Part shown: piece after piece, positions 22,244 through 35,961 of the stretch
Position numbering within the stretch: the first letter of the stretch is position 1
Layout: each line of letters starts with the position of its first letter
Assembly (NCBI GenBank): GCA_001786995.1
Contig: MFUO01000004.1
Span: 1 to 35,961 of the forward strand
Reading direction: 5' to 3'
From: Candidatus Nomurabacteria bacterium RIFCSPLOWO2_01_FULL_33_17
GTDB taxonomy: Bacteria; Patescibacteriota; Minisyncoccia; Phycocordibacterales; UBA9973
DNA: 35,961 nucleotides
Program-made: the position numbers and the translations under genes
The notes under the pieces: generated by a model
Databases searched by the model: none
Told to the model about the DNA's origin: nothing
The model's input: only the letters and a program-made list of their open reading frames with translations

Positions 22244-25200
22244 CTACTGTTTTACAATTTTTTGGTTACCAATAAATTGGCTTCCTTTGTATATTTGTAT
22301 AAAGTAAACACCAGCAGGCAGATGATCCAAGTTGATTTGTTCAACATCATTTTGTATTAATGTTTTATGAACAACTACACCTTGAATATTAATGAAAACA
22401 ACCAGATCCCCTTCTTTTGATTCAACTGTGAGTTGCTCTAAGAAAGGATTTGGATAGGCTTTAATTGCTACCTGATCAGGATTTATACTAACATCGTTAA
22501 TTCCAGTCACATCCTTTTCTTTTGTTTTTAGAGAAAGGATGTTACCTTGTGTTATACCAATCTCATTTTCACAAACAAGACGAGTATAGTAAGTTTCTCC
22601 ATAATTACAAGATACCATTGAATAAACAACATCACTGTCATTTTTTGAAAAATAGATAGGACTTCTTTTTGAAAAACTTAAGTCTGTACTATATTCAAAA
22701 TAATATCTAATTGGAGCACTGCCATTTGCATTATACTTTCCTTCAAACAACAGAGTTGAATCATCAACCTGAGTAATCTTCAAAGTTTTAACATTTGGAG
22801 TTTGGTTATTTTTAGTCTTAAACTCAACCAACATAGAGTCTTTCCCATTTACATTTTGCAAATAGAATAAACAACTTTGTGTTGAATTTGCCCACAAGTT
22901 TGTAAGTACAATAGTGACAATTCTGATACCACTATCATAGAACATTTCCACAGAAGATTTTTGACCATCTCCATAGGTAGTCCAATATGAAGCCAATTCG
23001 TCTTTACTACTAATACTTGCTTTTAATACAGCATAGTGAATATCGGCAGTAACTTCTATAGATAGAATCTTTAGAAACACTTTTTCTTTTTGAGGAGTAA
23101 AATCAAGAGTCCGAAAACTCATAATCTCACTTTTTTCAATTCCCCAAGTATTTTCAGCAGAAACATAGAAGAAATATGTGGTATTGGGTTTCAACCCATA
23201 CATAATCCCTTGAACTGTTTTTTTGTAACTACCAGAGTTAAACTTACCGGTAATTTTGTAAAGTTCAGAAGGATCTGTTCCATAAACAAATTCGATATTT
23301 GTGTTTGTACCTTGTCCATCAACTTCTGCAAACAATATTGCGTACGTATCATGGACTATAGGCGTCAGTGTTTTTACAATTGGTTTTTGATTTCCTAAAG
23401 TAAGTACACTATCAGTCGTAGTCATCACAATCCCGAATGAATTTTGTGCATAGGCTTGATAATAATACCAAGTATTTGCATCCAGATCATTGGCCAATAT
23501 GCTAAATGGCCCAGAATCTATTTTATCATCTAGAATTGTAGTCTTAATTGTAAAACCGTTTTTATCTTTGCATACTACCCAAACATTCGTTTTTGTTTTA
23601 TTCGAGTTGTAATACCCGTCAAACACGATTGTTGTAGCAGTAGCACATACAGTTTCCAATTTGATTGTAGGTGGTTTGTTGTTTAGTGTTGTTAGCTCTT
23701 TGACATTACCTTGTATTTCACCGAAAGAATTTCTACTAATCGGTGCAAGATAGTATCGTGAATCTGGATTTAATCCTGATAATAAAACAGTCAGAGTGTC
23801 CAATACCTTTTTAGCGGTAAAAAAATCTGTCTGTTCTCTTAAGTTAAGATCATTCCCATAATTGAGAGCGAAGTCACTTATAGTGCCTCGGCCGTCAATG
23901 ACAACAGTAATTTTTGCAGAGTTAGGTGTGATAGAATCAATTTTCAATATCTTCACAACTGCTTCCTTGTTTGGAAGCGTTCTAAATTTGTAAACCTGGC
24001 CTTTTGTCACACCCCACTCATTTGTCGCTTTTATGCGATAGTAGTATGTGGTGTACTGGTCAAGTCCGTAGATTGGAACTAATTGATATGAGCTCCCTTT
24101 ACCTGTTTTAATTTCAGGTGTTTGATTTGTCAGTGTTTGAGACGATGTGCCCCATTCAAAAACAAACTTAGTGTCGCTTTTCTTTCCATCGACAAACCCA
24201 GCGAGTATTGCATAGGTTGAAGATATTGCATCAATTGAATCAGTAACCACCAATGGTTGTTGGTTGTTTAAGGTTGTCACAGCAATAGTTTTGCCGTAGA
24301 CAATTCCAAAAACATTTTCTGCCCCACTTCTAATAAAGTAAGTGTGGTTGGGCAACAAACCAGAAAGTGTCTCTGATATATTACCAGCAGATTTTCCTTG
24401 AGAACTCTTACTTGTACTCATTGAATACTTGTTCACAAGGGTGTCATACTCAAACCAAGTTTTTGTGTCTGTGCGATTTGCATCAAACTTAGCAAAGACA
24501 TTGATTTGAGTTGTACTGGATGCAATTGCTGAATCAGTATTTGTCGTAGGTGGAAAGTTAAAATCTGTGGTAAATTCTACCAACGATCCATAACTTATTC
24601 CAAACTTAGTTTTCGCTTTTAAGCGATAGTAATGCTTGGCACCACTTTCTATATCTTTTATACTTACTTTCACTGTGTCGGTACCTTTTTGATACGACAC
24701 AGGGGATGTCTCTAGCCCGAGATAAATACTCGTACCATGCTGAAAAGAAATTTCAGTAGATTCTGCACCATTGGAATTATAATAACCCCACAAATCGGCA
24801 GAAGTATAAGAGATATTACTTGCTTGAAGTGTTAAAACTTCTGGAGCGTAGCTACCTTCAGTTTTGAAAGATAGAATTTCTCCATAGCTTTTACCCCTAT
24901 TGCTTTCAGAAACAGCCCGGTAATAATAAGTTGTATTTGGCGAAAGGCCGTATATTTCCTTACTATAATTAAACATTCCATACTGACAATTCCAAGATTG
25001 GAAATAACTGTCATATGTGGATTTGTTTAATGATTTAGGCGACTGCCCATACTCGTAGTACGAATATGCACAATTTGCCAAGCCATCGAATCGGCAATTT
25101 AACATTGCAGTTGAATTTGACAGGTTGGTAGCTGAATCAGTGATAACCACTGGAGGTTTTCCTGATTGTGTGATAATGGTACCAACGCTTGAATAAACAG

Positions 25201-25828
25201 TACCAGAATCATTTTTTGCGGCTAACCGTACATAATATTTTTTGTATTCTTTGAGGTTTTTTACTTCCTCTTGCATACTACTCATATTATAGTTTTTGCT
25301 TTGGGTTTCTGGTTGAATGATTTTCTTTGTTGCACTCCTGAAAGAATCAGGAGTAATATCGTACTCATACCAAGTCGTGGTGATAAGTCCGTTTGCAAAA
25401 AAGTATCCGTTCACCTGAAACTGATTTGTGTCATTTGTCCAAAGTCCCCATAAATCCACACTAGGAAGTCCAGTTGGTGGTGTGTATAGATAATAGACAC
25501 TACCATAGCTTACCCCATTTGAATTTTTTGCAACCACCATATATTCGTATGATGTTTGTTCGTTGAGGTTTGTAATTGTCTGGCTTATTGTGCCAGAATT
25601 ACTTTTTGTGTAACGTTGGCTTGTGTCAACTTTACTTGACCCACTTTGCCAGTAGATAAAGTAGGATTCACAGGCCGATCCATTTGGGTTTACATACCCA
25701 TTTAAGACTGCGGAATTTCCAAATACACGAGTTGCATCGTATGTATCGACATACGGTGCTTGTGCGTAAGATGTTAGGCTACAGCTAATAATAGCGAGCC
25801 ATGTCATAATCATTTTTTTTGTTTTCAT
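22244..25828 (-). CDS. large secreted protein: ~11 tandem Fn3-like modules plus T9SS (Por) C-terminal sorting domain
   Basis: 1194-aa ORF with signal peptide MKTKKMIMTWLAIISCSLTSYAQAP. It has about 11 modules of roughly 95-100 aa, each ending L.PNTTYYYR..A.N..G...G....F.T. The C-terminus KAYPNPFLEQLTVES...INLDHLPAGVYFIQIYKGSQFIGNQKIVKQ matches the T9SS type A sorting tail pattern. Confidence 0.85.
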   Translation of the reverse strand: MKTKKMIMTWLAIISCSLTSYAQAPYVDTYDATRVFGNSAVLNGYVNPNGSACESYFIYWQSGSSKVDTSQRYTKSNSGTISQTITNLNEQTSYEYMVVAKNSNGVSYGSVYYLYTPPTGLPSVDLWGLWTNDTNQFQVNGYFFANGLITTTWYEYDITPDSFRSATKKIIQPETQSKNYNMSSMQEEVKNLKEYKKYYVRLAAKNDSGTVYSSVGTIITQSGKPPVVITDSATNLSNSTAMLNCRFDGLANCAYSYYEYGQSPKSLNKSTYDSYFQSWNCQYGMFNYSKEIYGLSPNTTYYYRAVSESNRGKSYGEILSFKTEGSYAPEVLTLQASNISYTSADLWGYYNSNGAESTEISFQHGTSIYLGLETSPVSYQKGTDTVKVSIKDIESGAKHYYRLKAKTKFGISYGSLVEFTTDFNFPPTTNTDSAIASSTTQINVFAKFDANRTDTKTWFEYDTLVNKYSMSTSKSSQGKSAGNISETLSGLLPNHTYFIRSGAENVFGIVYGKTIAVTTLNNQQPLVVTDSIDAISSTYAILAGFVDGKKSDTKFVFEWGTSSQTLTNQTPEIKTGKGSSYQLVPIYGLDQYTTYYYRIKATNEWGVTKGQVYKFRTLPNKEAVVKILKIDSITPNSAKITVVIDGRGTISDFALNYGNDLNLREQTDFFTAKKVLDTLTVLLSGLNPDSRYYLAPISRNSFGEIQGNVKELTTLNNKPPTIKLETVCATATTIVFDGYYNSNKTKTNVWVVCKDKNGFTIKTTILDDKIDSGPFSILANDLDANTWYYYQAYAQNSFGIVMTTTDSVLTLGNQKPIVKTLTPIVHDTYAILFAEVDGQGTNTNIEFVYGTDPSELYKITGKFNSGSYKKTVQGIMYGLKPNTTYFFYVSAENTWGIEKSEIMSFRTLDFTPQKEKVFLKILSIEVTADIHYAVLKASISSKDELASYWTTYGDGQKSSVEMFYDSGIRIVTIVLTNLWANSTQSCLFYLQNVNGKDSMLVEFKTKNNQTPNVKTLKITQVDDSTLLFEGKYNANGSAPIRYYFEYSTDLSFSKRSPIYFSKNDSDVVYSMVSCNYGETYYTRLVCENEIGITQGNILSLKTKEKDVTGINDVSINPDQVAIKAYPNPFLEQLTVESKEGDLVVFINIQGVVVHKTLIQNDVEQINLDHLPAGVYFIQIYKGSQFIGNQKIVKQ

Positions 25829-25992
25829 TTTTTTGTTTTTTGTTTTTTTAAGTTTTAGAAAATTTTTATTTAAAGAAATTTAATTGTTAGTTAATTCAAT
25901 AAAAAAGACGAATTTGCATCCGTTTTATAGAACTAACTAACCCCTAAAAAGCAAAAAATCTGCCTGTCAAAGAACACTGTAGATTGGTGTAT

Positions 25993-26021
25993 ATACTATC
26001 ACAAATAGCCCTATTTGTCAA
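25993..26021 (-). promoter_or_regulatory. sigma70-like promoter TTGACA-17-TAGTAT facing the Fn3-repeat gene
   Basis: The minus strand reads ttgacaaatagggctatttgtgatagtat. It overlaps the palindrome acaaatag-cc-ctatttgt (26001-26018). Confidence 0.45.
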
Positions 26022-26029
26022 TGGCTATA

Positions 26030-26057
26030 TTGCAATCCCCTTTTTATGTGATATAGT
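26030..26057 (+). promoter_or_regulatory. candidate promoter TTGCAA-16-TATAGT for the 26083 gene
   Basis: Read on the plus strand, 26 nt upstream of the ATG. Confidence 0.4.
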
Positions 26058-26082
26058 ATAAGAAACCTAAAAATCTGACGCT

Positions 26083-26610
26083 ATGAAAAACAATGACTAC
26101 TTCAACCTATTAAAAATAGGTCTAATTGTAAAAATTATTGCATTGGCACTAACTGTGATTTTATTAATCCTAGTGATAGGAAGCAAATCTGCCTTTGGGC
26201 AAACAAAACCCCAAAACAAAATCAAGAAAAAGGCTGAAAAACAAGTAGAGTTTGTTTTAAACTACGAGTTGCAGTTTGATTCAATAACAGTAGTAATCCC
26301 ATGGATCCGCCTACAAGAGAATCAAGAAATCAGCTCTCTATCTTGGATATTAAAAGAGTATTTACAAAAATCTGGTGATACCTTGTGGTTGGAAATTCCC
26401 AAAGGGTACACCCCCTTCTCAAGAGAATATCCTGATAATAAAAGCCTTATAAATACCGCAATGGTTGAAATAAGGCAAGGTTATTCTCCCGGATTTAAAA
26501 AGGAAGACGAAGAGATATTTTATATCCCGGAGTCTGAGATTATAGGGAACCGATTCCCTATTTGCACAAATACAAAAAAGGAAAGACTGTATATATACAT
26601 CTACTTATAG
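26083..26610 (+). CDS. membrane-anchored hypothetical protein
   Basis: 175-aa ORF with one N-terminal TM/signal anchor (IIALALTVILLILVIGS). No motifs recognised. It is followed by a terminator. Confidence 0.5.
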   Translation: MKNNDYFNLLKIGLIVKIIALALTVILLILVIGSKSAFGQTKPQNKIKKKAEKQVEFVLNYELQFDSITVVIPWIRLQENQEISSLSWILKEYLQKSGDTLWLEIPKGYTPFSREYPDNKSLINTAMVEIRQGYSPGFKKEDEEIFYIPESEIIGNRFPICTNTKKERLYIYIYL

Positions 26611-26634
26611 ATTGTTGGGTTCAAACCCAATAAG

Positions 26635-26660
26635 GCGTGTCTTAAAAGATGCGCTTTTTT
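26635..26660 (+). terminator. intrinsic terminator
   Basis: gcgtgtc-ttaaaa-gatgcgc (with G-U pairs) followed by tttttt. Confidence 0.55.
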
Positions 26661-26728
26661 ATTTGCAATTATGAATTTATTTAAAAACTTACCCTAAAAA
26701 ACATTTAAAATTGGGCTTATTTTAGCCC

Positions 26729-26757
26729 TTGACAAATCCATCCGAATTTGCTATACT
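26729..26757 (+). promoter_or_regulatory. near-consensus sigma70 promoter TTGACA-17-TATACT
   Basis: The -35 ttgaca is at 26729-26734 and the -10 tatact at 26752-26757, with an exact 17-nt spacer. This is the best promoter match in the window. Confidence 0.6.
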
Positions 26758-27160
26758 GTCCCCAAGATGCAACAACACCGATGAGACGGATTTGGATGCA
26801 GGAAAATTCCTGGTAAACATCCCCCGTCCGTGGCTTATGCATCAACGCCGAGATGGTCAGGTATGGGGAAAGACCCCACTTAAATGCCTAGATCGTCAAT
26901 TTAGTTCTTTTATTACATATGTAATTTAAATATAAACCAAATAGAAAGGTTTGTAAGTAAATGACATAATTGATTCTTGAGTCAGAGTTATAAGAATCAT
27001 AAATAGAAGAACGTAAGTTTTGTAAACTCCTCTTTTTATTTTTTAGGAAATGACCGCAGGCAAATGATATCGAAAGATAAACGCAACCGCCACCGGATAA
27101 TCCAAAATAAAAAGAGCATAACCACAAAAACTATAATTTACTCTGAAGTTATAGGGTTAT

Positions 27161-27184
27161 GATAAAGAAAGCCCATTAACGGGC
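27161..27184 (-). terminator. possible terminator of the SIMPL gene
   Basis: The minus strand reads gcccgttaatgggc followed by tttctttatc. Confidence 0.35.
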
Positions 27185-27190
27185 ACAGAT

Positions 27191-27225
27191 GCGGCAGCCA
27201 ATTGGTTGCCGCTTTTTTATTTTTT
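27191..27225 (+). terminator. intrinsic terminator (plus strand)
   Basis: gcggcagcc-aatt-ggttgccgc followed by ttttttatttttt. Confidence 0.7.
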
Positions 27226-27227
27226 AT

Positions 27228-28019
27228 TTACCTTATTTCGTAAGTTATCGAAACATTTGATGTATATTTATTTTCACCCATTGGAATTTCTGGAATTATA
27301 GATTTTTCCATAGCACCATCGCGCATCATAGTTGCGCCACCGTACATTGGATATATTCCCCCACCATTATTTTCTGAAAAATTTTGAATTTTTACAAGTC
27401 TTACACCAAGTTGAGCGGACAATGTTCGCGCTTTAGATTTTGCATCTCCAATTGCATCAGTGCGAGCTTTGTTTCTTGCTTCATCTTCGTTTGCTAATGT
27501 AAATTCTGGGCCTGATACATTTGTTGCACCCCATTCGGTCAATTTACCAGCAACTTCCCCTGCAAGATCAATGTCTTTAATTTTCACACTGACGGTTTGG
27601 TTAAAAGTATAACCAACAGCTACATTTTTACCATCGGGTTGTGGACATGGTGCACGAACACAATATATTGTTTGTTGTTGCCATTCGTATTTTGGATTTA
27701 GAGAAAAATTAATTGTTTTTAAATCTTTATCATCCATATCATAATCTTTCTTTAATTTAGCCAAAATATTATTCATGACTTCACTACCTGCATCTTTGGC
27801 TTGTTTTTGAGTAATGGCATCCTTCTCTACAGTAAAAGTAAACAACGCTGTATCGGGTATTGCAAAATATTCACCAGTACCATCTACGGTAATAGTTGCA
27901 ACTGGCTTGTTTTCATCATTACGATTAAAAGCACCATAAGCATTAGCTAGGAAAAATATAGACAAACAAACACTGGTAATAATGATAAGATTTGTCAAAA
28001 GCTTTTTATTTTCAAACAT
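27228..28019 (-). CDS. SIMPL-domain (DUF541) protein
   Basis: Has an N-terminal TM anchor and a typical SIMPL layout ending ...YTSNVSITYEIR. The ATG at 28019 (MFENKKLL...) is preferred. The track's GTG at 28061 lies in the GC-rich repeat. Confidence 0.75.
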   Translation of the reverse strand: MFENKKLLTNLIIITSVCLSIFFLANAYGAFNRNDENKPVATITVDGTGEYFAIPDTALFTFTVEKDAITQKQAKDAGSEVMNNILAKLKKDYDMDDKDLKTINFSLNPKYEWQQQTIYCVRAPCPQPDGKNVAVGYTFNQTVSVKIKDIDLAGEVAGKLTEWGATNVSGPEFTLANEDEARNKARTDAIGDAKSKARTLSAQLGVRLVKIQNFSENNGGGIYPMYGGATMMRDGAMEKSIIPEIPMGENKYTSNVSITYEIR

Positions 28020-28075
28020 AAATTTATATATTAAGAGTAATACAGCTATTATAGCACACACCCCCTCTTAAATCT

Positions 28076-28091
28076 CCCCCTTAGCAGGGGG
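28076..28091. repeat. GC-rich hairpin repeat (ccccc-ttagca-ggggg)
   Basis: It is preceded by cacacaccccctc, giving the same organisation as the other family members. Confidence 0.6.
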
Positions 28092-28180
28092 CGAAACAGC
28101 GAAGCAAAATTGTCTTTTTGAAAATGTCTGGTGAGCCAACCCGAGGACTTTTTAAAAAGATTATTTTGCGTAGCTGATTT

Positions 28181-28864
28181 TTATGCTATTTTATTCGTTA
28201 TATCAGAAACAATTTTGCCATCTACCAAAAAAATAGTCCTGTCAGACATATGGGCATATTCAACTTCGTGCGTAACCATAATAATGGTTTGACCTTCATG
28301 ATTTAGCTTTAAAAACAAATCAATGATATTTTTTGAAGTCTCTGTATCTAAATTAGCTGTTGGCTCATCAGCAAAAAGAACTTTCGGATTATGTGATATT
28401 GCCCGGGCAATGGAGACTCGTTGCTGTTGCCCTCCGGAAAGTTGACTAGGTAAATTATGCATTCTATCTTCCAATCCAACTTTAGTTAAAGCTTCAATTG
28501 TCTTGTTTTCTGCTTGCTTGTCATCCAGACCCAACATTAACAATGGGACCATGACATTTTCAAATGCAGTTAATGATGGCAATATTGCGTAATCCTGAAA
28601 TATATAACCAAGATTTTTTAATCGCATACTACTTTTTTGATTTTCATCTAAAGATTCGGTATTAATATCATCAATTATAATTTGACCATCAGTTGGTGTA
28701 TCTAATAATCCTAATTGATAAAGTAATGTTGATTTACCACTACCTGACTTTCCAGAAACTGTTAAAAACTGACCATCTGGAATAGTAAAAGACACATCAT
28801 CGAGTGCTCGAATTGGTGAATCACCATTCTCAAAAATTTTAGCTAAATTTTTTATTTGTATCAT
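28181..28864 (-). CDS. ABC transporter ATP-binding protein (MacB/LolD-like)
   Basis: 227-aa ORF with Walker [10 protein letters not shown], signature LSGGQQQR and Walker B LFADEPT. Confidence 0.9.
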
Positions 28865-28965
28865 CCTCCTAAACTTTTCACTTATATAAGTTATTTATTT
28901 TTGTGAAAAGTATTTTAATTTATTAAATAATAATTAAGACCTAATTTAAAAAAGTTTCGGCGGAT
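28863..28965 (-). repeat. ~100-nt structured intergenic cassette, copy D (between FtsX permease and ABC ATPase)
   Basis: Terminal inverted repeats are atcctcctaaactttt (28863-28878) and aaaagtttcggcggat (28950-28965). AGGAGG lies flush against the ATPase ATG. Confidence 0.85.
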
Positions 28966-28973
28966 AAATTCTC

Positions 28974-30251
28974 TTACCGGCCTAATATGGCACTTAATGT
29001 ATTTTGCTTTACGACTATTCGAGCTGGTATAAAGCCGGCAATAACTGTTGTGATCATTAATAACAAAACTCGATATAATGTACCCGATAGTGTTGCAACT
29101 AAAATACCGTCAGAAAAAGGAAAATCAATAGGATGCGCAATAAAAGCTGGTTTGATAAAAGCAAAAACCAAAATCATACCAATAATTGAGCCTAAAATAG
29201 CATAAAATAAAGATTGATAAATATAAGAAATTATAATAGCTCGTCTTGTTATACCAATACCTTTTAATATCCCAATATAACGACGGCGTGTAATAGCATT
29301 TACAAAAATAACAATAAATATAGTAATCGATGCCACGACAAGCCCAATAGACGATATTGCATTACCAAGTATCGCAAAAGTTTTTTGTATATCTTTTAAA
29401 AATTTAGGTTGAGCTTCGATAGATGTTTGAATACGAGCATAACCACCAATACCAGACGACACAAGTGCATTCTTAGCTAAATCTTCGTCAATACCATCTT
29501 GCAAATCAATTGCAATTTCATTATAGGTAATAAGACTTGTACCCATCATTTTTCGAAGCTCGGACTGATTCATAAATACACGCGAATCAACTTCGTTAAC
29601 TTTGGCTTTTATTGTCCCACGAACTATAAATTCTTTTTGAGTATCACCAATAGTGATAAGAACACTGTCTCCAATAGACACACGCTTCAAAGCGGTAAAC
29701 CCAGGAAATTCAATTGGTGTTTCTTCATTATAAATTAAACTATCACCTATCAAAATCCCATCTGGGTCATCAGACGACAAATATGTGCCTGTTTTGATTG
29801 CTGTTTTAAGATTCGTAACTAAATCTTCTTGCTCGGGAATTATACCAACCAATCCAGCCCCAACTGCATTTGGTAATTCATCTTTCAAAAGTGTTTTTCG
29901 AAATTCGGCAGTTACCCGCCCAGAACTTGTAATTCGCGCAGTATAATTTGCGAGTCCTGGAGTATTTTCTACAACTTTTACAACTTCAACACTTTGGTCA
30001 ATATAATCGCGATTTAAAAATGAACTGATAAAAATATCGCCAGTGTTTCGAGCTTTGTTGGCTTGAACCGAGCCTTCAATCAAACCAACTAAAATTCCAG
30101 AAACCACGACTAAATTTAAAAAAGTAAAAATCATAACAAACACAATTAAAATTGTTGTCCATTTATTGGCTCGTTTGATATCACGTTTGGCTAAAAATAA
30201 TCCAACCCGAGCGTCATTTTTTATAATTTTTAAAATTTTTTCTTTAAACAT
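28974..30251 (-). CDS. ABC transporter permease, MacB-type (periplasmic domain plus FtsX 4-TM)
   Basis: 425-aa ORF with an N-terminal TM helix, a large extracytoplasmic domain and a C-terminal FtsX-like helical bundle (GILKGIGITRRAII). Confidence 0.85.
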   Translation of the reverse strand: MFKEKILKIIKNDARVGLFLAKRDIKRANKWTTILIVFVMIFTFLNLVVVSGILVGLIEGSVQANKARNTGDIFISSFLNRDYIDQSVEVVKVVENTPGLANYTARITSSGRVTAEFRKTLLKDELPNAVGAGLVGIIPEQEDLVTNLKTAIKTGTYLSSDDPDGILIGDSLIYNEETPIEFPGFTALKRVSIGDSVLITIGDTQKEFIVRGTIKAKVNEVDSRVFMNQSELRKMMGTSLITYNEIAIDLQDGIDEDLAKNALVSSGIGGYARIQTSIEAQPKFLKDIQKTFAILGNAISSIGLVVASITIFIVIFVNAITRRRYIGILKGIGITRRAIIISYIYQSLFYAILGSIIGMILVFAFIKPAFIAHPIDFPFSDGILVATLSGTLYRVLLLMITTVIAGFIPARIVVKQNTLSAILGR

Positions 30252-31813
30252 TATTTTGTTTTAAACAAAACCATTTCGCTACCTGTAAGCCCACTTGTAA
30301 TTTCAGTCATTGCCCCATCACCAGTAAAACCAACAGTTACTGGTAGTTTTTTAGTTTTGGCCTTTTTCTCATTTGTAACAAATAAAATATATTTAGTTCC
30401 ATCTTCATTTGTGTATATTGCTCTGTTTGGAATTACTACAATATTTTCTTTTTCTTGTATTAGAATAGAAAGATTTGCAGTTGAACCAATTTTAATTTGA
30501 TCTTGTCCTGTTAAAATATTGGCTTTGATTTTATAATTAACAATATTACCATCTTTTGTTGGGGAACCATCTATATGTGTAACTTCTGCTATAAATGTTT
30601 GATTATTCCCAAGTGTATCAACTGTAAAACTAACAACTTGTCCGGGTTTAATAAGATCAATATCGGCTTCATTTATATTGGCTTCTAAAAACAAACCACC
30701 TCGTTCTTCTAAAACTATAGCTATCTTTTTAGATTCAATGTTTTCACCAATGCGCAAATCTTGCCTTGTTATATAACCATTAATTGGTGCGCGAATTATT
30801 TTTTCTTCATACGCACCAAGAGCCGATTGAACCCGACCTTGAGCTGTCAAAACATCAGCTTCTCGAGCTAAAACATCGCTGGGGCGGGCTTTGGCTTTTT
30901 TTAAATCTAAATTAGCTTGTGCATTATCAATAGTTGCTTGGGCAGTTTCCAAGGCTGAAAATCGTGTATCTTCCGCACTTTTTAAACTACTTAAATTAGT
31001 ATTGTAATTAACGCTTGTAGTATTTGGAATTTTTATCTTCCAACTTTCATTATAAGTCGTGGAGCTCGTTGAAAATTGTATATAAAGACCTTTGTCCCCC
31101 AATGCTATCGGAGTATTTGTAGAAACTGGGAAAGACCCACCTTGCCCTGTTAGGCTAGAGTACGATGCGTATTGTCCGGAACCTGTCGAATAAATATTGA
31201 TATTATATTCATCTTCAATATCAGCTGTATACGTTCCACTAATTGTTGGAGCAGTTGTATTAGAACTTGCCATATTTGAAACAGCTAAAAGCGAATTAGA
31301 ATATAAATTTGCCCGTGCATTTTTTACCAAAGTATTTTGTAATTTCTCGGTACTACTATATGCGCGTTTTGCATTTTCAAGAGTAACTTCAGCAACACGA
31401 ACTTCTTCAGAAGTATTTCCTTCTAAAGTACGAGCAAGTGCAGCCTGTGCAGATTTTAAAGCACCATATGCTTGGTTAAGTGCCCCAAGTTCAGACCCGG
31501 CATTTAATGATGCTAGAACCTGACCTTTGTATACATATTGCCCTAAAAATGTATTGACATTTGATACCACCCCTGAATTATTAAATGATAATTCTAAATT
31601 AACACTGGAAGTGACATTTCCAGTGGCTTTTACGGTTTTTTGAAGATTTTGTATTTTAGCAATTTCAACAATTTCTGTCTTTGGATTAAATCCGTTAGGT
31701 ACGATTTTAGATATAATTATCAGTAAAATAACTAATCCCAAAATACTCCATTTCCAATTTTTCCGTAAAAATACCCATTTAGATTTTATTAATGTGGATA
31801 TTTTTTCTTTCAT
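30251..31813 (-). CDS. HlyD/MacA-like periplasmic adaptor (membrane fusion protein)
   Basis: 520-aa ORF with an N-terminal anchor, a lipoyl-like segment (GQYVYKGQVLASL), a long Ala/Gln-rich coiled coil and a beta-barrel end. Its stop overlaps the permease ATG (TAATG). Confidence 0.8.
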   Translation of the reverse strand: MKEKISTLIKSKWVFLRKNWKWSILGLVILLIIISKIVPNGFNPKTEIVEIAKIQNLQKTVKATGNVTSSVNLELSFNNSGVVSNVNTFLGQYVYKGQVLASLNAGSELGALNQAYGALKSAQAALARTLEGNTSEEVRVAEVTLENAKRAYSSTEKLQNTLVKNARANLYSNSLLAVSNMASSNTTAPTISGTYTADIEDEYNINIYSTGSGQYASYSSLTGQGGSFPVSTNTPIALGDKGLYIQFSTSSTTYNESWKIKIPNTTSVNYNTNLSSLKSAEDTRFSALETAQATIDNAQANLDLKKAKARPSDVLAREADVLTAQGRVQSALGAYEEKIIRAPINGYITRQDLRIGENIESKKIAIVLEERGGLFLEANINEADIDLIKPGQVVSFTVDTLGNNQTFIAEVTHIDGSPTKDGNIVNYKIKANILTGQDQIKIGSTANLSILIQEKENIVVIPNRAIYTNEDGTKYILFVTNEKKAKTKKLPVTVGFTGDGAMTEITSGLTGSEMVLFKTK

Positions 31814-31824
31814 ATTATTTTTAT

Positions 31825-33966
31825 TTATTTTCTTGCGGCGACGATGTCTTTTTCAACATTTGGAGGAACAATATCATAACGAGAAAATTCCATAGTAAAG
31901 CTTGCTCGGCCTTCGGTCATGCTTCTTAGTGAATTTATATAACCAAACATTTCAGAAAGTGGAACCATAGCACGGATAACTTTGTTCATACCACGGTCTT
32001 CCATACCTTCAACAAGCCCACGCTTCGACGATAGATTCCCTGTTATGTCTCCCATGAATTTTTCTGGAGTTACAACTTCAACTTTCATCATTGGTTCTAG
32101 AATAACTGGACGAGCAGACCGACATGCATCTTGGACTGCCATAGATGCCGCAATTTTAAATGCCATTTCGTTCGAGTCAACATCGTGATATGTTCCATCA
32201 TAAAGTTCCACAGAAACATTAACCATTTTAAAACCGGCAACAACTCCGCGATCAAGACCTTCGCGAAAACCTTTTTCACAAGCTGGAATATATTCTGATG
32301 GAATTGCTCCACCTTTTAATGTATTAACAAATTCAAAATGATCATCACGCTTTGTGTTTTTAGGTAGTTTTTCCAAATCAACATTCATATCCATAGGTTT
32401 GATACGAATTTTTGTATGACCATAGTTACCACGACCTCCGGATTGTTTGATATATTTACCTTCGGCTTCGGATGTAATTGTAATAGTTTCGCGATATGCC
32501 ACCATTGGTTTACCAACATTGGCTTCAACTGTAAATTCACGCTTCATACGATCAACGATAATTTCCAAATGAAGTTCACCCATACCGGCAATAATTGTTT
32601 CATTAGTTTCTTGATCAGTTGAAACTTTAAATGTTGGATCTTCTGCGGAAAGTCGTGACAATGCCATACCCATTTTTTCTTGGTCGGCTTTTGTTTTTGG
32701 TTCAATTCGAAGCGATACAACAGGTTCTGGAAAAACAATACGATCAAGCTCAATTGGGCTAGATTCGGAACAAATAGTGTCCGATGTAATTGTATCTTTT
32801 AAACCAACTGCAGCTGCAATTTCACCAGCAAAAACTTTTTTAACTTCTTCACGATCATTTGCATGCATACGCAAAATTCGTCCGATTCGTTCTTTATTAC
32901 GAGTTCGTGGATTGTAAACATAACTTCCTGATTCAAGAGTTCCAGAGTAAACCCGGAAGAAAACTAGTTGTCCAACATATGGATCACTTGCTAATTTAAA
33001 AGCTAAAGCTGAAAAAGGTTCAGTGTCAGACGGATTACGAATTAATGCTTCATCAGTTGTAGGGTGAACTCCTGTTATTGGTGGAATATCTAATGGACTT
33101 GGTAAATAATCAACAACAGCATCTAATACAAGTTGTACACCTTTATTTTTAAGTGCAGACCCTGCAAAAACTGGAAAAATTTCATTTGCAATTACTGCTT
33201 TACGCAATGTTGCTTTTAATCTTTCAATAGTTATTTCTTTGCCCTCGAGATAATCATTCATCATTGTTTCGTCATTCAATGCGATTTTTTCAACAAGTTC
33301 AGAACGATATTTTTCAACATCCCCCTTCATATCTTCTGGAATATCACATTCTACGATTTTGATTCCCATTTCTCCTTCAAATTTATATCCTTTGCGAGTA
33401 AGTAAATCAACAACACCCATATGGTTTTCTTCAAGACCAATTGGTAATTGGCATCGAACAGCTTTTTTAGAAAGACGATCAAGAATTGATGCAAAAGATT
33501 TTTCAAAGTTTGCACCAGTACGGTCAAGTTTGTTTATAAAACAAATGCGAGGAACATTGGCTTCATCAGCATAGCGCCAGTTTGTTTCAGACTGTGGTTC
33601 TACCCCGGCAACACCGTCAAATACAACAACAGCGCCATCAAGCACACGAAGAGATCTTTTAACTTCTACTGTAAAATCAATATGCCCTGGTGTATCAATA
33701 ATGTTAAAACGATGTTTTTTGTTTTTATCATTAGGTGCGTATGTTGGGTTCCAAAAACAAGTAATAGCCGCAGATGTAATAGTAATACCACGCTCTTTTT
33801 CTTGTTCCATCCAGTCAGTTGTCGCTGCACCATCATGAACTTCTCCAATTTTGTGAGATACTCCTGTGTAATATAAAACACGCTCACTAGTTGTTGTTTT
33901 ACCAGCATCAATGTGCGCAATGATTCCAAAATTTCGAACTTTCTCTAGAGGATAATCTCTTTCCAT
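31825..33966 (-). CDS. fusA: translation elongation factor G
   Basis: 713-aa ORF with [18 protein letters not shown] and the full EF-G domain set. Confidence 0.97.
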
Positions 33967-34001
33967 ATGATATTAATTAATGATTTTATTATTTTTATAA
34001 A

Positions 34002-34472
34002 TTACCAAGCGAAGTGTGCGAAAGCTTTGTTAGATTCTGCCATTTTATGAGTATCTGTACGCTTTTTAACTGCAGAACCTTCATTTTTAGATGCAAGTAT
34101 TAGTTCGTCAGCTAAACATTCATTCATTTGGCGGCCTTTTTGACCACGAGCTGCATTTATTATCCAACGAATTGCTAATGCTTGTTGTCTTTCTTTGCGA
34201 ACTTCTCTTGGAACTTGATAGTTTGCTCCTCCGATACGACGAGATCGTACTTCGATCAAAGGACTTGCATTTTTAATTGCTAAATCAAAAATTTCAAGGG
34301 GATTTGGATTTCCGGTTTTTTCTTTAACTATGTCAAATGCACTGTACACGACTTTCATCGCAGTATTTTTTTTACCATCCCACATAATTACATTTATAAA
34401 CTTGGAAAGTTTTTCCGAGTTATAATTCATGTCTGGACCTACAGTATTTTTATTTGTTATTTTTCTTCGCAT
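34002..34472 (-). CDS. rpsG: 30S ribosomal protein S7
   Basis: 156-aa ORF with conserved S7 sequence (VRSRRIGGANYQVP...AHFAW). Confidence 0.97.
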   Translation of the reverse strand: MRRKITNKNTVGPDMNYNSEKLSKFINVIMWDGKKNTAMKVVYSAFDIVKEKTGNPNPLEIFDLAIKNASPLIEVRSRRIGGANYQVPREVRKERQQALAIRWIINAARGQKGRQMNECLADELILASKNEGSAVKKRTDTHKMAESNKAFAHFAW

Positions 34473-34474
34473 AT

Positions 34475-34912
34475 TTATTTTTTCTTAGATACAGTGTCTC
34501 CAGCTTTTGGACGCTTTACACCATATTTACTACGCTCTTTTCGACGTTTGTCTACTCCGGATGCATCAAGTCTTCCACGGACAATATGATAACGAACACC
34601 AATAAGGTCTTTTACGCGACCACCACGAATCATTACAACCGAGTGTTCTTGTAAATTGTGACCCATTCCAGGAATATAAGCTGTAACTTCCATACCATTT
34701 GTAAGACGCACACGAGCGATTTTACGAACAGCAGAGTTAGGTTTTTTAGGAGTTGTTGTAGTAACTTTTGTACAAACGCCTCTTTTAAAAGGTGAAGGAT
34801 ACATAATAGGACGATTTTTAAGCGCATTAAAACCACGAGCCAATGCTACGGCTTTGGATTTTTTAACGACTTTTTTTCTTCCTTTTCGAACTAGTTGATT
34901 TACTGTTGGCAT
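34475..34912 (-). CDS. rpsL: 30S ribosomal protein S12
   Basis: 145-aa ORF with [19 protein letters not shown] and [17 protein letters not shown]. Confidence 0.97.
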
Positions 34913-35012
34913 TAACTAAAAGAGCATTTATCGTCAGATATTACGAAAGTACCCATATTACTATTAAAATCCCGGATGCCGGGACATGTGTATATAAAGT
35001 AACATAACTAAG

Positions 35013-35058
35013 ACTAAAACGCAAGAAAAATCCCAAGGGATTTTTCTTGCGTTTTAGT
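35013..35058. terminator. 22-bp perfect hairpin (actaaaacgcaagaaaaatccc-aa-gggatttttcttgcgttttagt)
   Basis: It lies between the FKBP stop and the rpsL start. It is followed by the 18-nt perfect palindrome agctgaaagctttcagct (35060-35077). There is no clean U-run, so terminator function is assumed from position alone. Confidence 0.45.
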
Positions 35059-35083
35059 TAGCTGAAAGCTTTCAGCTTAATCA

Positions 35084-35635
35084 CTATTGCCCTATTTTTC
35101 TAAGCTCAATATCAAAAATAAGAGTTGAACCACCAGGAATTGTTTGATAATCATTTGGACCATATGCTAAATCAGATGGAATTGTAAGGCGACGCTTTTC
35201 TCCAACTTTCATACCCAACAAACCTTCATCCCATCCAGCAATAACATTACCTGCACCAACTATGAACAAAAATGGTTGTCCTCTTTTATAACTTTCATCA
35301 AACACGGTCCCATTTGTAAAAAATCCACGATAATCTACACTTACGGTATCACCACTGCGAACACCAGACCCTGTCCCCTCACTTATGATTTCTATAATAA
35401 GACCATTTTCTTTTTTTATAATTTGCACAGGTTCCATTTTATTTGTATCTTTTTTACCTAATAATTCACTACCAGTAGGTATTACTTTAATATTTGTACC
35501 AGTAATCCCATCATCAGTAATTTGTGGTGCAACAACTGAACCACTAAAATTTTTATATCCTAAAATACTTATAATTACAAGAACCATAATGATAACGATA
35601 CCTATAAATACCTTGGAATCTTTTTTCTTTTGCAT
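35084..35635 (-). CDS. membrane-anchored FKBP-type peptidyl-prolyl cis-trans isomerase
   Basis: 183-aa ORF with an N-terminal TM helix and the FKBP core ([18 protein letters not shown]...[26 protein letters not shown]). Confidence 0.85.
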
Positions 35636-35668
35636 ATATTATAAAAATTAATTATTTAAGTTAAAATT

Positions 35669-35950
35669 TTAAAAAAATCGAAGTAATAAAATAAACAAAG
35701 GTGCAACAAGTGCAAATGAAACCAATGAGTAACCAGCATTTATACCAAACAATGTCCAACTATCTCGTCTTGCGCGTCCAGACCAAATAGCACCACTTGC
35801 TTTGTTAGGCATAATAATAAAGAACCAAAATATAATTCCAAATATAAGTGCTGCGGAATATGTACTAGCAAATGCTAAATTCATAATTGTTAAAAATCCG
35901 AAGAACATTATGAAACTTGAAACAAAATCCAAAACTACACGAATTATCAT
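35669..35950 (-). CDS. small 3-TM membrane protein
   Basis: 93-aa hydrophobic ORF. No family recognised. Confidence 0.45.
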   Translation of the reverse strand: MIIRVVLDFVSSFIMFFGFLTIMNLAFASTYSAALIFGIIFWFFIIMPNKASGAIWSGRARRDSWTLFGINAGYSLVSFALVAPLFILLLRFF

Positions 35951-35961
35951 GTCTTTTTTAT

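What the first reader, a model, noticed from the sequence alone, without database searches (positions are those of the whole stretch)
22244..25828. Bacteroidota-style T9SS cargo protein (11 Fn3-like modules plus Por sorting tail) in an otherwise CPR-like housekeeping context
The 1194-aa ORF has three Bacteroidota-type features:
- a signal peptide ending SYAQAP
- about 11 divergent modules of ~95-100 aa, each ending L.PNTTYYYR..A.N..G...G....F.T
- a C-terminus (KAYPNPF...LPAGVYFIQIYKGSQFIGNQKIVKQ) that matches the type A T9SS sorting domain pattern

T9SS machinery is known from Bacteroidota/FCB-group diderms. The flanking genes instead look like a reduced-genome lineage: the pilin helix motif, SD-less starts, and the secE-nusG-rplK and str operons.

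The local GC content is also higher, about 36-38% against about 30%. The gene has its own consensus TTGACA promoter and its own terminator.

Three explanations are open. The gene may be a horizontally acquired adhesin whose tail is non-functional or repurposed. The host may have an unrecognised way of handling such tails. Or the contig may be chimeric.
Basis: partly seen in the sequence, partly recalled or inferred. Interest (0 to 1): 0.6.

Follow-up and report, generated by a model that had tools for sequence, protein, structure and literature searches.

The report
T9SS-type tail in CPR bacterium
A tiny single-membrane "candidate phyla radiation" bacterium natively encodes a long secreted fibre protein that ends in the address tag other bacteria use only for outer-membrane (type IX) secretion, although it has neither that machine nor an outer membrane, so the tag must do some other job here.

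Summary
On the minus strand, window 22244-25828 encodes a 1194-aa protein with three parts:
- a Sec-type signal peptide (…SYAQA|P);
- 11 tiled ~96-aa Fn3 modules;
- a C-terminal domain that passes both curated T9SS type A models (TIGR04183 39.6-46.7 bits, cut-off 23; PF18962 38.8-44.5 bits, cut-off 27). It folds as a 7-strand sandwich whose best PDB matches are T9SS CTDs.

The host is a 0.56-Mb Patescibacteria (Paceibacteria-type) genome. Its EF-G is 81-82% identical to named Paceibacterota proteins.

The contig is not chimeric. Independent assemblies from at least 4 samples reproduce both junctions. Synonymous codon usage is at the genome median. Sister genomes carry other tail-bearing genes in the same SIMPL-secE slot; one has a tail 48% identical on an unrelated body.

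None of 18 tail-bearing Patescibacteria genomes, closed ones included, has SprA, PorV, the PorU body or BamA. A Bacteroidota control rang for all four. GldK/L/M tests lacked a working control.

Such tails occur in 6% of sampled genomes of the phylum and 10% of the order.

Best reading: this is a native, strain-variable, Sec-exported surface fibre whose T9SS-type tail is kept for a T9SS-independent role. That role is inferred, not shown.

This scan has repeatedly noted the same phenomenon in other CPR genomes. I found no paper describing it.

The parts
25993..26021 (-). Promoter-like site TTGACA-17 nt-TAGTAT with TG before the -10 hexamer, about 165 nt upstream of the ATG. The leader is A-rich and has no Shine-Dalgarno sequence.
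   Evidence: This is a consensus match only; no transcript data were available.
25760..25828 (-). Sec-type signal peptide, aa 1-23 (MKTKKMIMTWLAIISCSLTSYAQA|P). Cys16 also fits a loose lipobox, but the nearest homologue P0003 keeps AQA|P and lacks the Cys.
   Evidence: by direct reading of the sequence.
22529..25759 (-). Eleven tandem Fn3 modules of about 96 aa each (aa 24-1100), the passenger or stalk.
   Evidence: 11 tiled domain hits with the module HMM. Pfam fn3 and Pur_ac_phosph_N. AF2 model with pLDDT 96 and FnIII best matches.
22466..22528 (-). Linker, aa 1101-1121, predicted to be disordered.
   Evidence: pLDDT below 50-62 in the AF2 model of the last 100 aa.
22247..22465 (-). T9SS type A C-terminal domain (aa 1122-1194) with motif B (YPNPF), motif D (GVYF) and motif E (QKIVKQ). 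The stop codon is at 22244-22246.
   Evidence: TIGR04183 and PF18962 score above their cut-offs. The AF2 model gives 7 strands at pLDDT about 95, and the best PDB matches are T9SS CTDs: 8glk_D, 8qb1, 5m11, 7pq4. Motif columns are conserved.
22189..22220 (-). Terminator-like hairpin (GCCCGACGAC…GTCGTCCGGGC) followed by a T-run, 24 nt after the stop codon.
   Evidence: Pattern match only.
21382..22128 (-). 248-aa secreted protein of unknown family, downstream of the tail gene. It belongs to the variable slot and has no counterpart in sister genomes.
26083..26610 (+). 175-aa membrane or secreted protein of unknown family, also part of the variable slot.
27228..28061 (-). SIMPL (DUF541) gene, the conserved right border of the variable slot.
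   Evidence: Pfam 148 bits. 63% identical in sister genomes L040 and L041.
19565..21058 (+). Zn-ribbon/RDD/TPR membrane protein next to secE-nusG-rplK, the left border of the slot.

Best explanation
The gene is a resident gene of a Patescibacteria (Paceibacteria-type CPR) bacterium.

**Proposed mechanism.**
- The protein is exported by the Sec pathway through its N-terminal signal peptide.
- The cell has no outer membrane and no T9SS, so the protein emerges directly at the cell surface.
- It forms a rod, perhaps roughly 40 nm long, of 11 Fn3 modules.
- The T9SS-type C-terminal Ig-like domain is not used for translocation and is probably not cleaved, because there is no PorU.
- The domain is kept as a working terminal module. 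It most likely acts as a binding or anchoring tip that holds the fibre to a surface, either the cell's own envelope or that of a partner cell.

**Genomic setting.** The gene sits in a hypervariable surface-protein slot between SIMPL and secE. Within that slot, passengers are swapped or expanded between close relatives.

**Shown:**
- native location in the genome;
- real CTD sequence and fold;
- absence of SprA, PorV, PorU and BamA;
- recurrence of such tails in the phylum;
- tail conservation comparable to that of neighbouring envelope proteins.

**Inferred:**
- Sec export;
- surface display;
- lack of cleavage;
- the binding or anchoring role.
For: **Taxonomy and native status.**
- EF-G in the same contig is 81-82% identical to named Paceibacterota, Minisyncoccia, Nomurabacteria and Patescibacteria proteins.
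- The genome is 557 kb, 82% complete, with 0.22% contamination.
- Both junctions and the whole gene recur at 99.9% identity or better in independent assemblies: JGI 3300002502, ENA ERZ28563803, ERZ4903055 and ERZ27254756.
- Synonymous codon usage ranks 125 of 239.

**The tail is a real T9SS-type CTD.** It passes the HMM cut-offs.

**No machinery.** None of the 18 tail-bearing Patescibacteria genomes has SprA, PorV, the PorU body or BamA. The Spirosoma control scored 1694, 436, 1161 and 334 bits respectively.

**Recurrence.**
- 18 of 301 sampled genomes of the phylum score over the cut-off, including a one-contig genome with 4 or more tails.
- 21 of 201 sampled genomes of the order do, in 17 of 156 genera.

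**Retention within the lineage.**
- The positional homologue in sister genome L041 has an unrelated 278-aa body but a tail 48% identical to this one.
- That figure falls within the 42-68% range of flanking envelope proteins.
- In a CPR-only alignment of 24 tails, the most conserved columns are motifs B, D and E plus the turn Gly.
- These motifs are described as surface-exposed binding interfaces in T9SS CTDs (PMC10202324).

**Cargo-like features of CPR tail proteins.** 19 of 20 have obvious signal peptides. They carry diverse adhesin-like passengers: LRR, VWA, LVIVD and propellers.
Against: - No experiment or expression data exist.
- No anchor is evident. There is no LPXTG motif, no sortase was found in the 82%-complete genome, and there is no C-terminal transmembrane segment.
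- No conserved partner gene lies next to the tails in 14 neighbourhoods.
- One positional homologue (L040, 396 aa) has a degenerate tail scoring 19.9 bits with motif B lost. Constraint is therefore not universal.
- The tail is only about 23% identical to that of the closest full-length homologue, P0003.
- PorK/L/M absence could not be shown, because the incomplete control genome did not ring.
Confidence: 0.55

Rival explanations
1. The tail is a neutral relic. Whole cargo genes were acquired from FCB-group bacteria. In a cell without an outer membrane, Sec export alone releases the protein, and the CTD is a harmless passenger slowly decaying.
For: - Distribution is patchy: 6% of the phylum sample and 10% of the order sample.
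- The tail in L040 is degenerate at 19.9 bits.
- In the nusA slot, the tails of P0003 and of the G256:C9 protein are of different subtypes, which implies cassette replacement.
- The next-best match to this tail is a non-CPR protein of 46-54% GC: P0195, 44% identical.
Against: - The genomes are streamlined, yet tails persist in genus pairs (g250, g265, g307 and g317 are each 2 of 2), and one genome has 10 copies.
- Tail identity between positional homologues equals that of flanking envelope proteins, although the bodies are unrelated.
- The T9SS motif columns remain the most conserved in CPR tails.
- Codon usage is fully ameliorated.
Confidence: 0.2
2. The tail mimics host T9SS cargo. The CPR cell is an epibiont of a T9SS-bearing (Bacteroidota or other FCB-group) host. 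The exposed CTD at the fibre tip docks onto the extracellular loops of host PorV or the host attachment complex, serving as a host-recognition adhesin.
For: - Motifs B, D and E, described as surface-exposed contacts for PorV and PorM (PMC10202324), are the columns kept in CPR tails.
- The best structural match is a CTD bound in the Flavobacterium translocon-PorV complex (8glk_D, TMt 0.81).
- Passengers are adhesin-like and strain-variable.
- CPR tails come in two subtypes. From my own recollection of such tails, not tested here, these resemble different FCB lineages.
Against: - No host is known for this lineage.
- There are no co-occurrence or binding data.
- I recall that the only cultured member of the class I know of is reported to parasitise an archaeon; this was not checked here.
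- The conserved motifs may also serve folding.
Confidence: 0.12
3. Patescibacteria have an unrecognised CTD-dependent sorting or anchoring pathway, a monoderm analogue of PorU or sortase. It would recognise the tail and attach the passenger to the wall or S-layer.
For: - The architecture is the one typical of sorting systems: signal peptide, variable passenger, conserved extreme C-terminal domain. It recurs in many CPR proteins.
- No classical sortase was found in G000.
Against: - No conserved neighbouring gene was found in 14 neighbourhoods.
- The PorU model matched only through its own CTD part.
- No genome-wide phylogenetic profiling could be run.
Confidence: 0.1
4. The finding is an assembly or binning artefact: a Bacteroidota fragment joined into, or binned with, a CPR contig.
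For: - The gene's tetranucleotide distance from the genome mean is in the top 3.6% of windows.
- Its GC3 is at the 93rd percentile.
Against: - The gene lies in the middle of a 36-kb contig, with CPR housekeeping genes on both sides.
- Both junctions are reproduced in independent assemblies from at least 4 samples.
- Sister genomes hold tail genes in the same slot.
- Closed Patescibacteria genomes carry such tails.
- Synonymous codon usage is at the median.
Confidence: 0.02

Closest known systems
T9SS type A cargo proteins of Bacteroidota with Fn3-type repeats (TIGR04183 / PF18962), for example the Tenacibaculum 'T9SS type A sorting domain-containing protein' P0048, and adhesins such as Flavobacterium RemA
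   Same: - The architecture matches: Sec signal peptide, repeated beta-sandwich passenger and a type A CTD at the very end.
- The CTD passes both curated models and keeps motifs B, D and E.
- The predicted fold superposes on solved T9SS CTDs.
   Different: - The host has no SprA, PorV, PorU or BamA, so the tail cannot act as an outer-membrane export and attachment signal.
- Body identity to P0048 is only 27% over 35% of the query.
Fn3-repeat surface proteins of Patescibacteria (P0003, 1384 aa, 40% identical; P0005 'fibronectin type III domain-containing protein [Candidatus Paceibacterota bacterium]', 29%)
   Same: - The Fn3 module type and the signal peptide (…AQA|P in P0003) are the same.
- The context is CPR. 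P0003's contig is syntenic with G256:C9, which belongs to the same family as G000.
- P0003 also ends in a PF18962 tail.
   Different: - P0003 sits in a different slot, next to nusA, and has a different module number.
- Its tail is only about 23% identical.
- P0005 has no tail.
Sortase-anchored LPXTG adhesins (MSCRAMM-type) of monoderm bacteria
   Same: This is a functional analogy only. Both are Sec-exported stalks of tandem Ig/Fn3-like modules with a conserved C-terminal sorting element, and both are strain-variable.
   Different: - There is no LPXTG motif, hydrophobic stretch or charged tail.
- No sortase was found in G000.
- The C-terminal element is a folded 70-aa beta-sandwich.
Other T9SS-tailed proteins in CPR genomes noted earlier in this scan (for example e1-5087901, e1-1216811, e1-5063853)
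   Same: The phenomenon is the same: a type A tail, no T9SS, variable slots, and the tail conserved.
   Different: - Here the passenger is an 11-module Fn3 rod.
- The slot is SIMPL-secE.
- The lineage is an AT-rich Paceibacteria-type genome from aquifer metagenomes.
- Those earlier notes are unreviewed AI notes.

Membership tests
T9SS type A C-terminal sorting domain (TIGR04183 / PF18962), domain membership | Score above the curated HMM cut-offs | tested here: met
   TIGR04183 scores 39.6 bits (whole protein) and 46.7 bits (last 99 aa) against a cut-off of 23. PF18962 scores 38.8 and 44.5 bits against 27.
T9SS type A C-terminal sorting domain (TIGR04183 / PF18962), domain membership | The domain ends at the extreme C-terminus of a protein that has an N-terminal Sec signal peptide | tested here: met
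   The match covers aa 1125-1194 of 1194. The signal peptide was read from the sequence; no predictor was run.
T9SS type A C-terminal sorting domain (TIGR04183 / PF18962), domain membership | Seven-strand Ig-like beta-sandwich fold | tested here: met
   The AF2 model has 7 strands at pLDDT about 95. Foldseek best matches are 8glk_D (NucA CTD, TMt 0.81), 8qb1 (mirolase CTD), 5m11 (PorZ) and 7pq4/5ag8 (RgpB CTD). The defining fold is as described in PMC10202324.
T9SS type A C-terminal sorting domain (TIGR04183 / PF18962), domain membership | Conserved motifs B (PxP), D (GxY) and E (C-terminal Lys) | tested here: met
   The motifs read YPNPF, GVYF and QKIVKQ. Columns P, G, GxY and K are invariant in alignment A1 and are the most conserved in the CPR-only alignment.
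Functional T9SS cargo (secreted and attached by a type IX system) | SprA/Sov translocon in the genome | tested here: not met
   0 of 18 tail-bearing Patescibacteria genomes, G000 included, have it. The Bacteroidota control scored 1694 bits. G000 is only 82% complete, but closed relatives also lack it.
Functional T9SS cargo (secreted and attached by a type IX system) | PorV shuttle and PorU sortase | tested here: not met
   PorV: 0 of 18, control 436 bits. PorU: only the model's own CTD part (positions about 950-1085) matched, control 1161 bits.
Functional T9SS cargo (secreted and attached by a type IX system) | PorK/L/M/N (GldK/L/M/N) trans-envelope core | tested here: inconclusive
   No hits over the cut-off in the 18 genomes. 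However, the incomplete 3.7-Mb control MAG did not ring for GldM or GldK and rang only weakly for GldL. GldN was not tested.
Functional T9SS cargo (secreted and attached by a type IX system) | Diderm envelope (outer membrane, BamA) | tested here: not met
   TIGR03303: 0 of 18. The control scored 334 bits, and 7 of 14 reference genomes rang.
Fibronectin type III domain repeats | Pfam fn3-type matches and Fn3 fold | tested here: met
   PF00041 46.7 bits, PF16656 70.2 bits, PF25059 53.1 bits. AF2 pLDDT 96 with FnIII and RsgI4 best matches.
Patescibacteria (CPR) genome | Housekeeping genes nearest to named Patescibacteria; small genome | tested here: met
   All named EF-G hits at 81-82% identity are Paceibacterota, Minisyncoccia, Nomurabacteria or Patescibacteria. 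The genome is 557 kb at 82% completeness.

The most novel reading that the evidence does not exclude
The T9SS-type tail is kept in these outer-membrane-less epibionts because it still engages T9SS parts, but those of another cell. The CTD at the tip of the Fn3 fibre would dock onto PorV or the attachment complex on the surface of a T9SS-bearing host, so host-cargo mimicry would serve as an attachment mechanism. A close alternative is that CPR bacteria possess an undescribed CTD-recognising sorting or anchoring system for monoderm envelopes.
Probability: 0.2. Interest if true: 0.85.

Novelty: new variant of a known kind. Interest (0 to 1): 0.58.

Why it matters
The type A CTD is regarded as a dedicated export and attachment signal of the type IX secretion system of Bacteroidota and their relatives. 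Here it is maintained, motifs included, in about 6-10% of sampled genomes of a phylum that has no outer membrane, SprA, PorV or PorU. Two readings follow:
- the domain has a second, T9SS-independent function;
- or it mediates contact with T9SS-bearing neighbours.

Either reading bears on how ultra-small epibiotic bacteria build their surfaces and recognise partners.

It also matters for annotation. A "T9SS type A sorting domain-containing protein" call cannot be taken as evidence for a T9SS, for FCB taxonomy or for contamination.

Six full-text searches found no paper on this. The scan's own earlier notes show that it recurs in many CPR genomes.

Tried and rejected
**Read mapping and coverage.** I used independent assemblies instead.

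**Composition as evidence of recent transfer.**
- Tetranucleotide distance is in the top 3.6% of windows. This reflects repeat and amino-acid bias, because synonymous codon usage is at the median.
- I therefore rejected recent transfer.

**GldM, GldL and GldK searches.** These were uninformative, because the Spirosoma control MAG is incomplete. The GldK hits in G008, G061 and G072 fall below the cut-off. I take them to be a generic sulfatase-modifying-type domain. That domain identity is my reading, not a test. The same model also rings in B. subtilis and Methanosarcina.

**Partner gene next to tails.** All-against-all BLAST of 217 ORFs from 14 neighbourhoods found no shared family other than the tail proteins themselves.

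**Sortase.** None was found in G000.

**Genome-contig scan with the tail.** It gave one hit only, a Spirosoma fluviale MAG at 33% identity. That hit served as the control but said little about origin.

**Region search of the tail.** It gave one informative hit, P0195 at 44% identity, on a non-CPR contig of 46% GC.

**PDB sequence search of the whole protein.** No hit.

**Lipoprotein reading of Cys16.** I considered it. The nearest homologues lack the Cys, so I did not adopt it.

**Tail phylogeny.** I did not build a CTD tree against FCB tails. The domain is only about 70 aa, and no handles were available for phyla other than Bacteroidota.


Full report
**1. What is there.** The finding's coordinates hold an ORF on the minus strand (22244-25828, 1194 aa).
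- The N-terminus, MKTKKMIMTWLAIISCSLTSYAQA|P, reads as a Sec signal peptide. It has a Lys-rich n-region, a hydrophobic core and an AxA site. This was read directly; no predictor was available.
- An HMM built from the visible modules tiles 11 non-overlapping copies over aa 23-1103, at 75-112 bits each. That test is circular.
- Two independent checks support the modules:
  - Pfam finds fn3, Pur_ac_phosph_N, PhoD_N and FN3_DSCAM-type matches.
  - An AlphaFold2 model of module 6, using the other ten modules as its alignment, has pLDDT 96. Its best PDB matches are FnIII domains and the Fn3-like RsgI4 sensor.
- The last 70 residues match both curated T9SS type A models above cut-off. PF18962 scores 38.8 and 44.5 bits against 27, and TIGR04183 scores 39.6 and 46.7 bits against 23. 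The match ends at the last residue.
- A model of the last 100 aa gives a disordered linker followed by a 7-strand sandwich at pLDDT about 95.
- The best matches of that model in the PDB are T9SS CTDs:
  - the NucA CTD bound in the Flavobacterium translocon (8glk_D, TMt 0.81, rmsd 2.3 Å);
  - the mirolase CTD (8qb1);
  - PorZ (5m11);
  - the RgpB CTD (7pq4, 5ag8).
- Motifs B (YPNPF), D (GVYF) and E (QKIVKQ) are present.
- A TTGACA-17-TAGTAT promoter-like site and a hairpin plus T-run flank the gene. These are pattern matches only.

**2. Whose genome.**
- The window is a whole contig (C4) of a 557-kb, 37-contig genome estimated at 82% complete with 0.22% contamination.
- The EF-G encoded 6 kb from the gene is 81-82% identical to proteins named as Candidatus Paceibacterota, Minisyncoccia, Pacebacteria, Nomurabacteria or Patescibacteria group. 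No named hit came from another phylum.

- A 38-kb JGI contig (3300002502) is collinear with window 21825-35961 at 99.96% identity. It covers the whole gene and the 27.2-kb junction.
- An ENA contig (ERZ27254756) crosses the same junction.
- Contigs from ERZ28563803 (40 kb) and ERZ4903055 carry the 1194-aa gene followed by the 248-aa gene, the Zn-ribbon/RDD/TPR gene, secE, nusG and rplK. That is the 21.3-kb side.
- Several other contigs break inside the last modules, as repeats would cause.
- On composition:
  - The gene is 35.6% GC against a genome mean of 32.6% (sd 2.3).
  - The str operon next door is equally GC-rich.
  - Tetranucleotide distance is in the top 3.6% of windows.
  - The distance in synonymous codon usage ranks 125 of 239, the median. 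The k-mer deviation therefore reflects repeats and amino-acid bias.
- The nearest full-length homologue, P0003 (40% identity, 1384 aa, also PF18962-tailed), lies beside nusA. Its contig is syntenic with G256:C9, a genome of the same family as G000.
- The next named homologue is a Paceibacterota Fn3 protein.

**4. A hypervariable slot with a conserved tail.** Two sister genomes (EF-G 94% identical) keep the same flanks: fusA, MFP, FtsX, ABC and SIMPL on one side, secE, nusG and rplK on the other. The content between SIMPL and secE differs.

| Genome | Slot content |
|---|---|
| L041 | 278-aa protein with a PF18962 tail (43.3 bits), plus a Zn-ribbon/TPR gene |
| L040 | 396-aa protein with an Fn3-like stretch and a degenerate tail (19.9 bits), plus a PG_binding_1 protein |

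- L040 and L041 give the same identity values to the window for every flanking gene, so their flanks appear near-identical, yet they differ in the slot.
- The L041 tail is 48% identical to the window's tail over 73 aa, although the bodies are unrelated.
- Across the same divergence, flanking envelope or membrane proteins are 42-68% identical. The tail is thus kept about as well as ordinary non-housekeeping proteins.
- G000 carries a second tail protein on contig C34 (442-aa frame, 41.5 bits).

**5. No machine to read the tail.** I searched 18 tail-bearing Patescibacteria genomes, including G000 and several closed or nearly closed ones. A Spirosoma MAG reached through locus L042 served as the control.

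| Component | Hits in 18 CPR genomes | Control score |
|---|---|---|
| SprA | 0 | 1694 bits |
| PorV | 0 | 436 bits |
| PorU | only its own CTD part (model positions about 950-1085) | 1161 bits |
| BamA | 0 | 334 bits |

- GldM, GldL and GldK gave nothing over the cut-off. However, the incomplete control did not ring either, so those three tests are inconclusive.
- No sortase was found in G000.

**6. How common.**
- TIGR04183 scores over the cut-off in 18 of 301 sampled genomes of the phylum. One of them is a single-contig 0.96-Mb genome with four or more tails.
- It scores over the cut-off in 21 of 201 sampled genomes of the same order, in 17 of 156 genera. One genome has ten tails, partly in tandem.
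- Twenty CPR tail proteins that I extracted have signal peptides in 19 cases. Their passengers are diverse: LRR, VWA, LVIVD plus metallophosphoesterase, propellers and unknowns.
- In a CPR-only alignment of 24 tails, the most conserved columns are YPNP(F), a turn Gly, GxY and the C-terminal Lys, that is motifs B, D and E.
- A T9SS review states that these motif residues are surface-exposed and are thought to contact PorV and PorM (PMC10202324).
- No gene family other than the tail proteins recurs next to the tails in 14 neighbourhoods.

**7. Interpretation.**
- Shown:
  - a native CPR gene;
  - a bona fide type A CTD by sequence, motifs and predicted fold;
  - no SprA, PorV, PorU or BamA;
  - recurrence and retention of the tail in the lineage.
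- Inferred:
  - The protein is Sec-exported and, with no outer membrane to cross, reaches the surface directly as an Fn3 rod of about 11 modules.
  - The CTD is not cleaved.
  - The CTD serves as a terminal binding or anchoring module.
- I give this reading 0.55.
- Rivals:
  - a decaying relic of horizontally acquired cargo genes (0.2; supported by the degenerate L040 tail and the patchy distribution);
  - mimicry of host T9SS cargo to dock on PorV of a T9SS-bearing partner (0.12);
  - an unknown CPR sorting system (0.1);
  - an artefact (0.02).

**8. Known or new.**
- Six full-text searches found no paper linking T9SS CTDs with Patescibacteria or CPR.
- This scan has noted the same phenomenon many times: 136 notes in at least 114 genomes hold the search words. 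Those notes agree with what I found here: variable slots, conserved tails and absent machinery. They are unreviewed AI notes, and I did not rely on them.
- This window adds four things:
  - a clean case with an 11-module Fn3 passenger;
  - a defined SIMPL-secE slot;
  - a tail shared between unrelated passengers;
  - a machinery search with a working positive control.
- I classify it as a new variant of a known kind, of moderate to good interest.

Noticed in passing
window 21300-27200; L040 16700-19700; L041 16700-19200: The interval between the SIMPL gene and secE is a hypervariable surface-protein slot. Three related genomes hold three different gene sets there. L040 and L041 differ in the slot although their flanking genes give the same identity values to the window.
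   Followed up: partly
L014 8470-14155; L045 (G256:C9) 74-2635: A second slot exists next to nusA. There a 1384-aa Fn3+tail protein (P0003) and a 296-aa tail protein occupy the same divergent position in related genomes. Their tails are of different subtypes, which suggests cassette replacement.
   Followed up: partly
G345 contigs C14, C15, C19 (L046-L048): One genome of the same order has ten TIGR04183 tails, several of them in tandem gene arrays. This looks like a lineage-specific expansion.
   Followed up: no
window 25781-25783 (Cys16 of the signal peptide): The signal peptide also fits a loose lipobox (A-I-I-S-C), so N-terminal lipid anchoring is conceivable. The nearest homologues lack the Cys.
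   Followed up: partly
L054, L056, L057 (contig ends within the last 84 codons of the gene): Several independent assemblies break inside the Fn3 repeat region. This is a reminder that such repeat genes fragment MAGs and are under-counted.
   Followed up: no
G008:C1:344494-354397; G061:C1:123747-124406; G072:C53: The GldK model gives sub-threshold hits (72-107 bits against a cut-off of 350) in three Patescibacteria genomes. They cover model positions about 208-406, and I take them to be the generic sulfatase-modifying (FGE-type) part, which I did not test. They are not evidence of a T9SS.
   Followed up: no
G000:C34:4425-5741 (-): The same genome holds a second secreted protein (about 439 aa, passenger without a Pfam match) with a type A tail (41.5 bits).
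   Followed up: partly
window 27191-27212 and 21308-21381: GC-rich terminator-like hairpins sit at both edges of the variable slot. I did not test whether they relate to the palindromic repeat families noted elsewhere in this genome.
   Followed up: no
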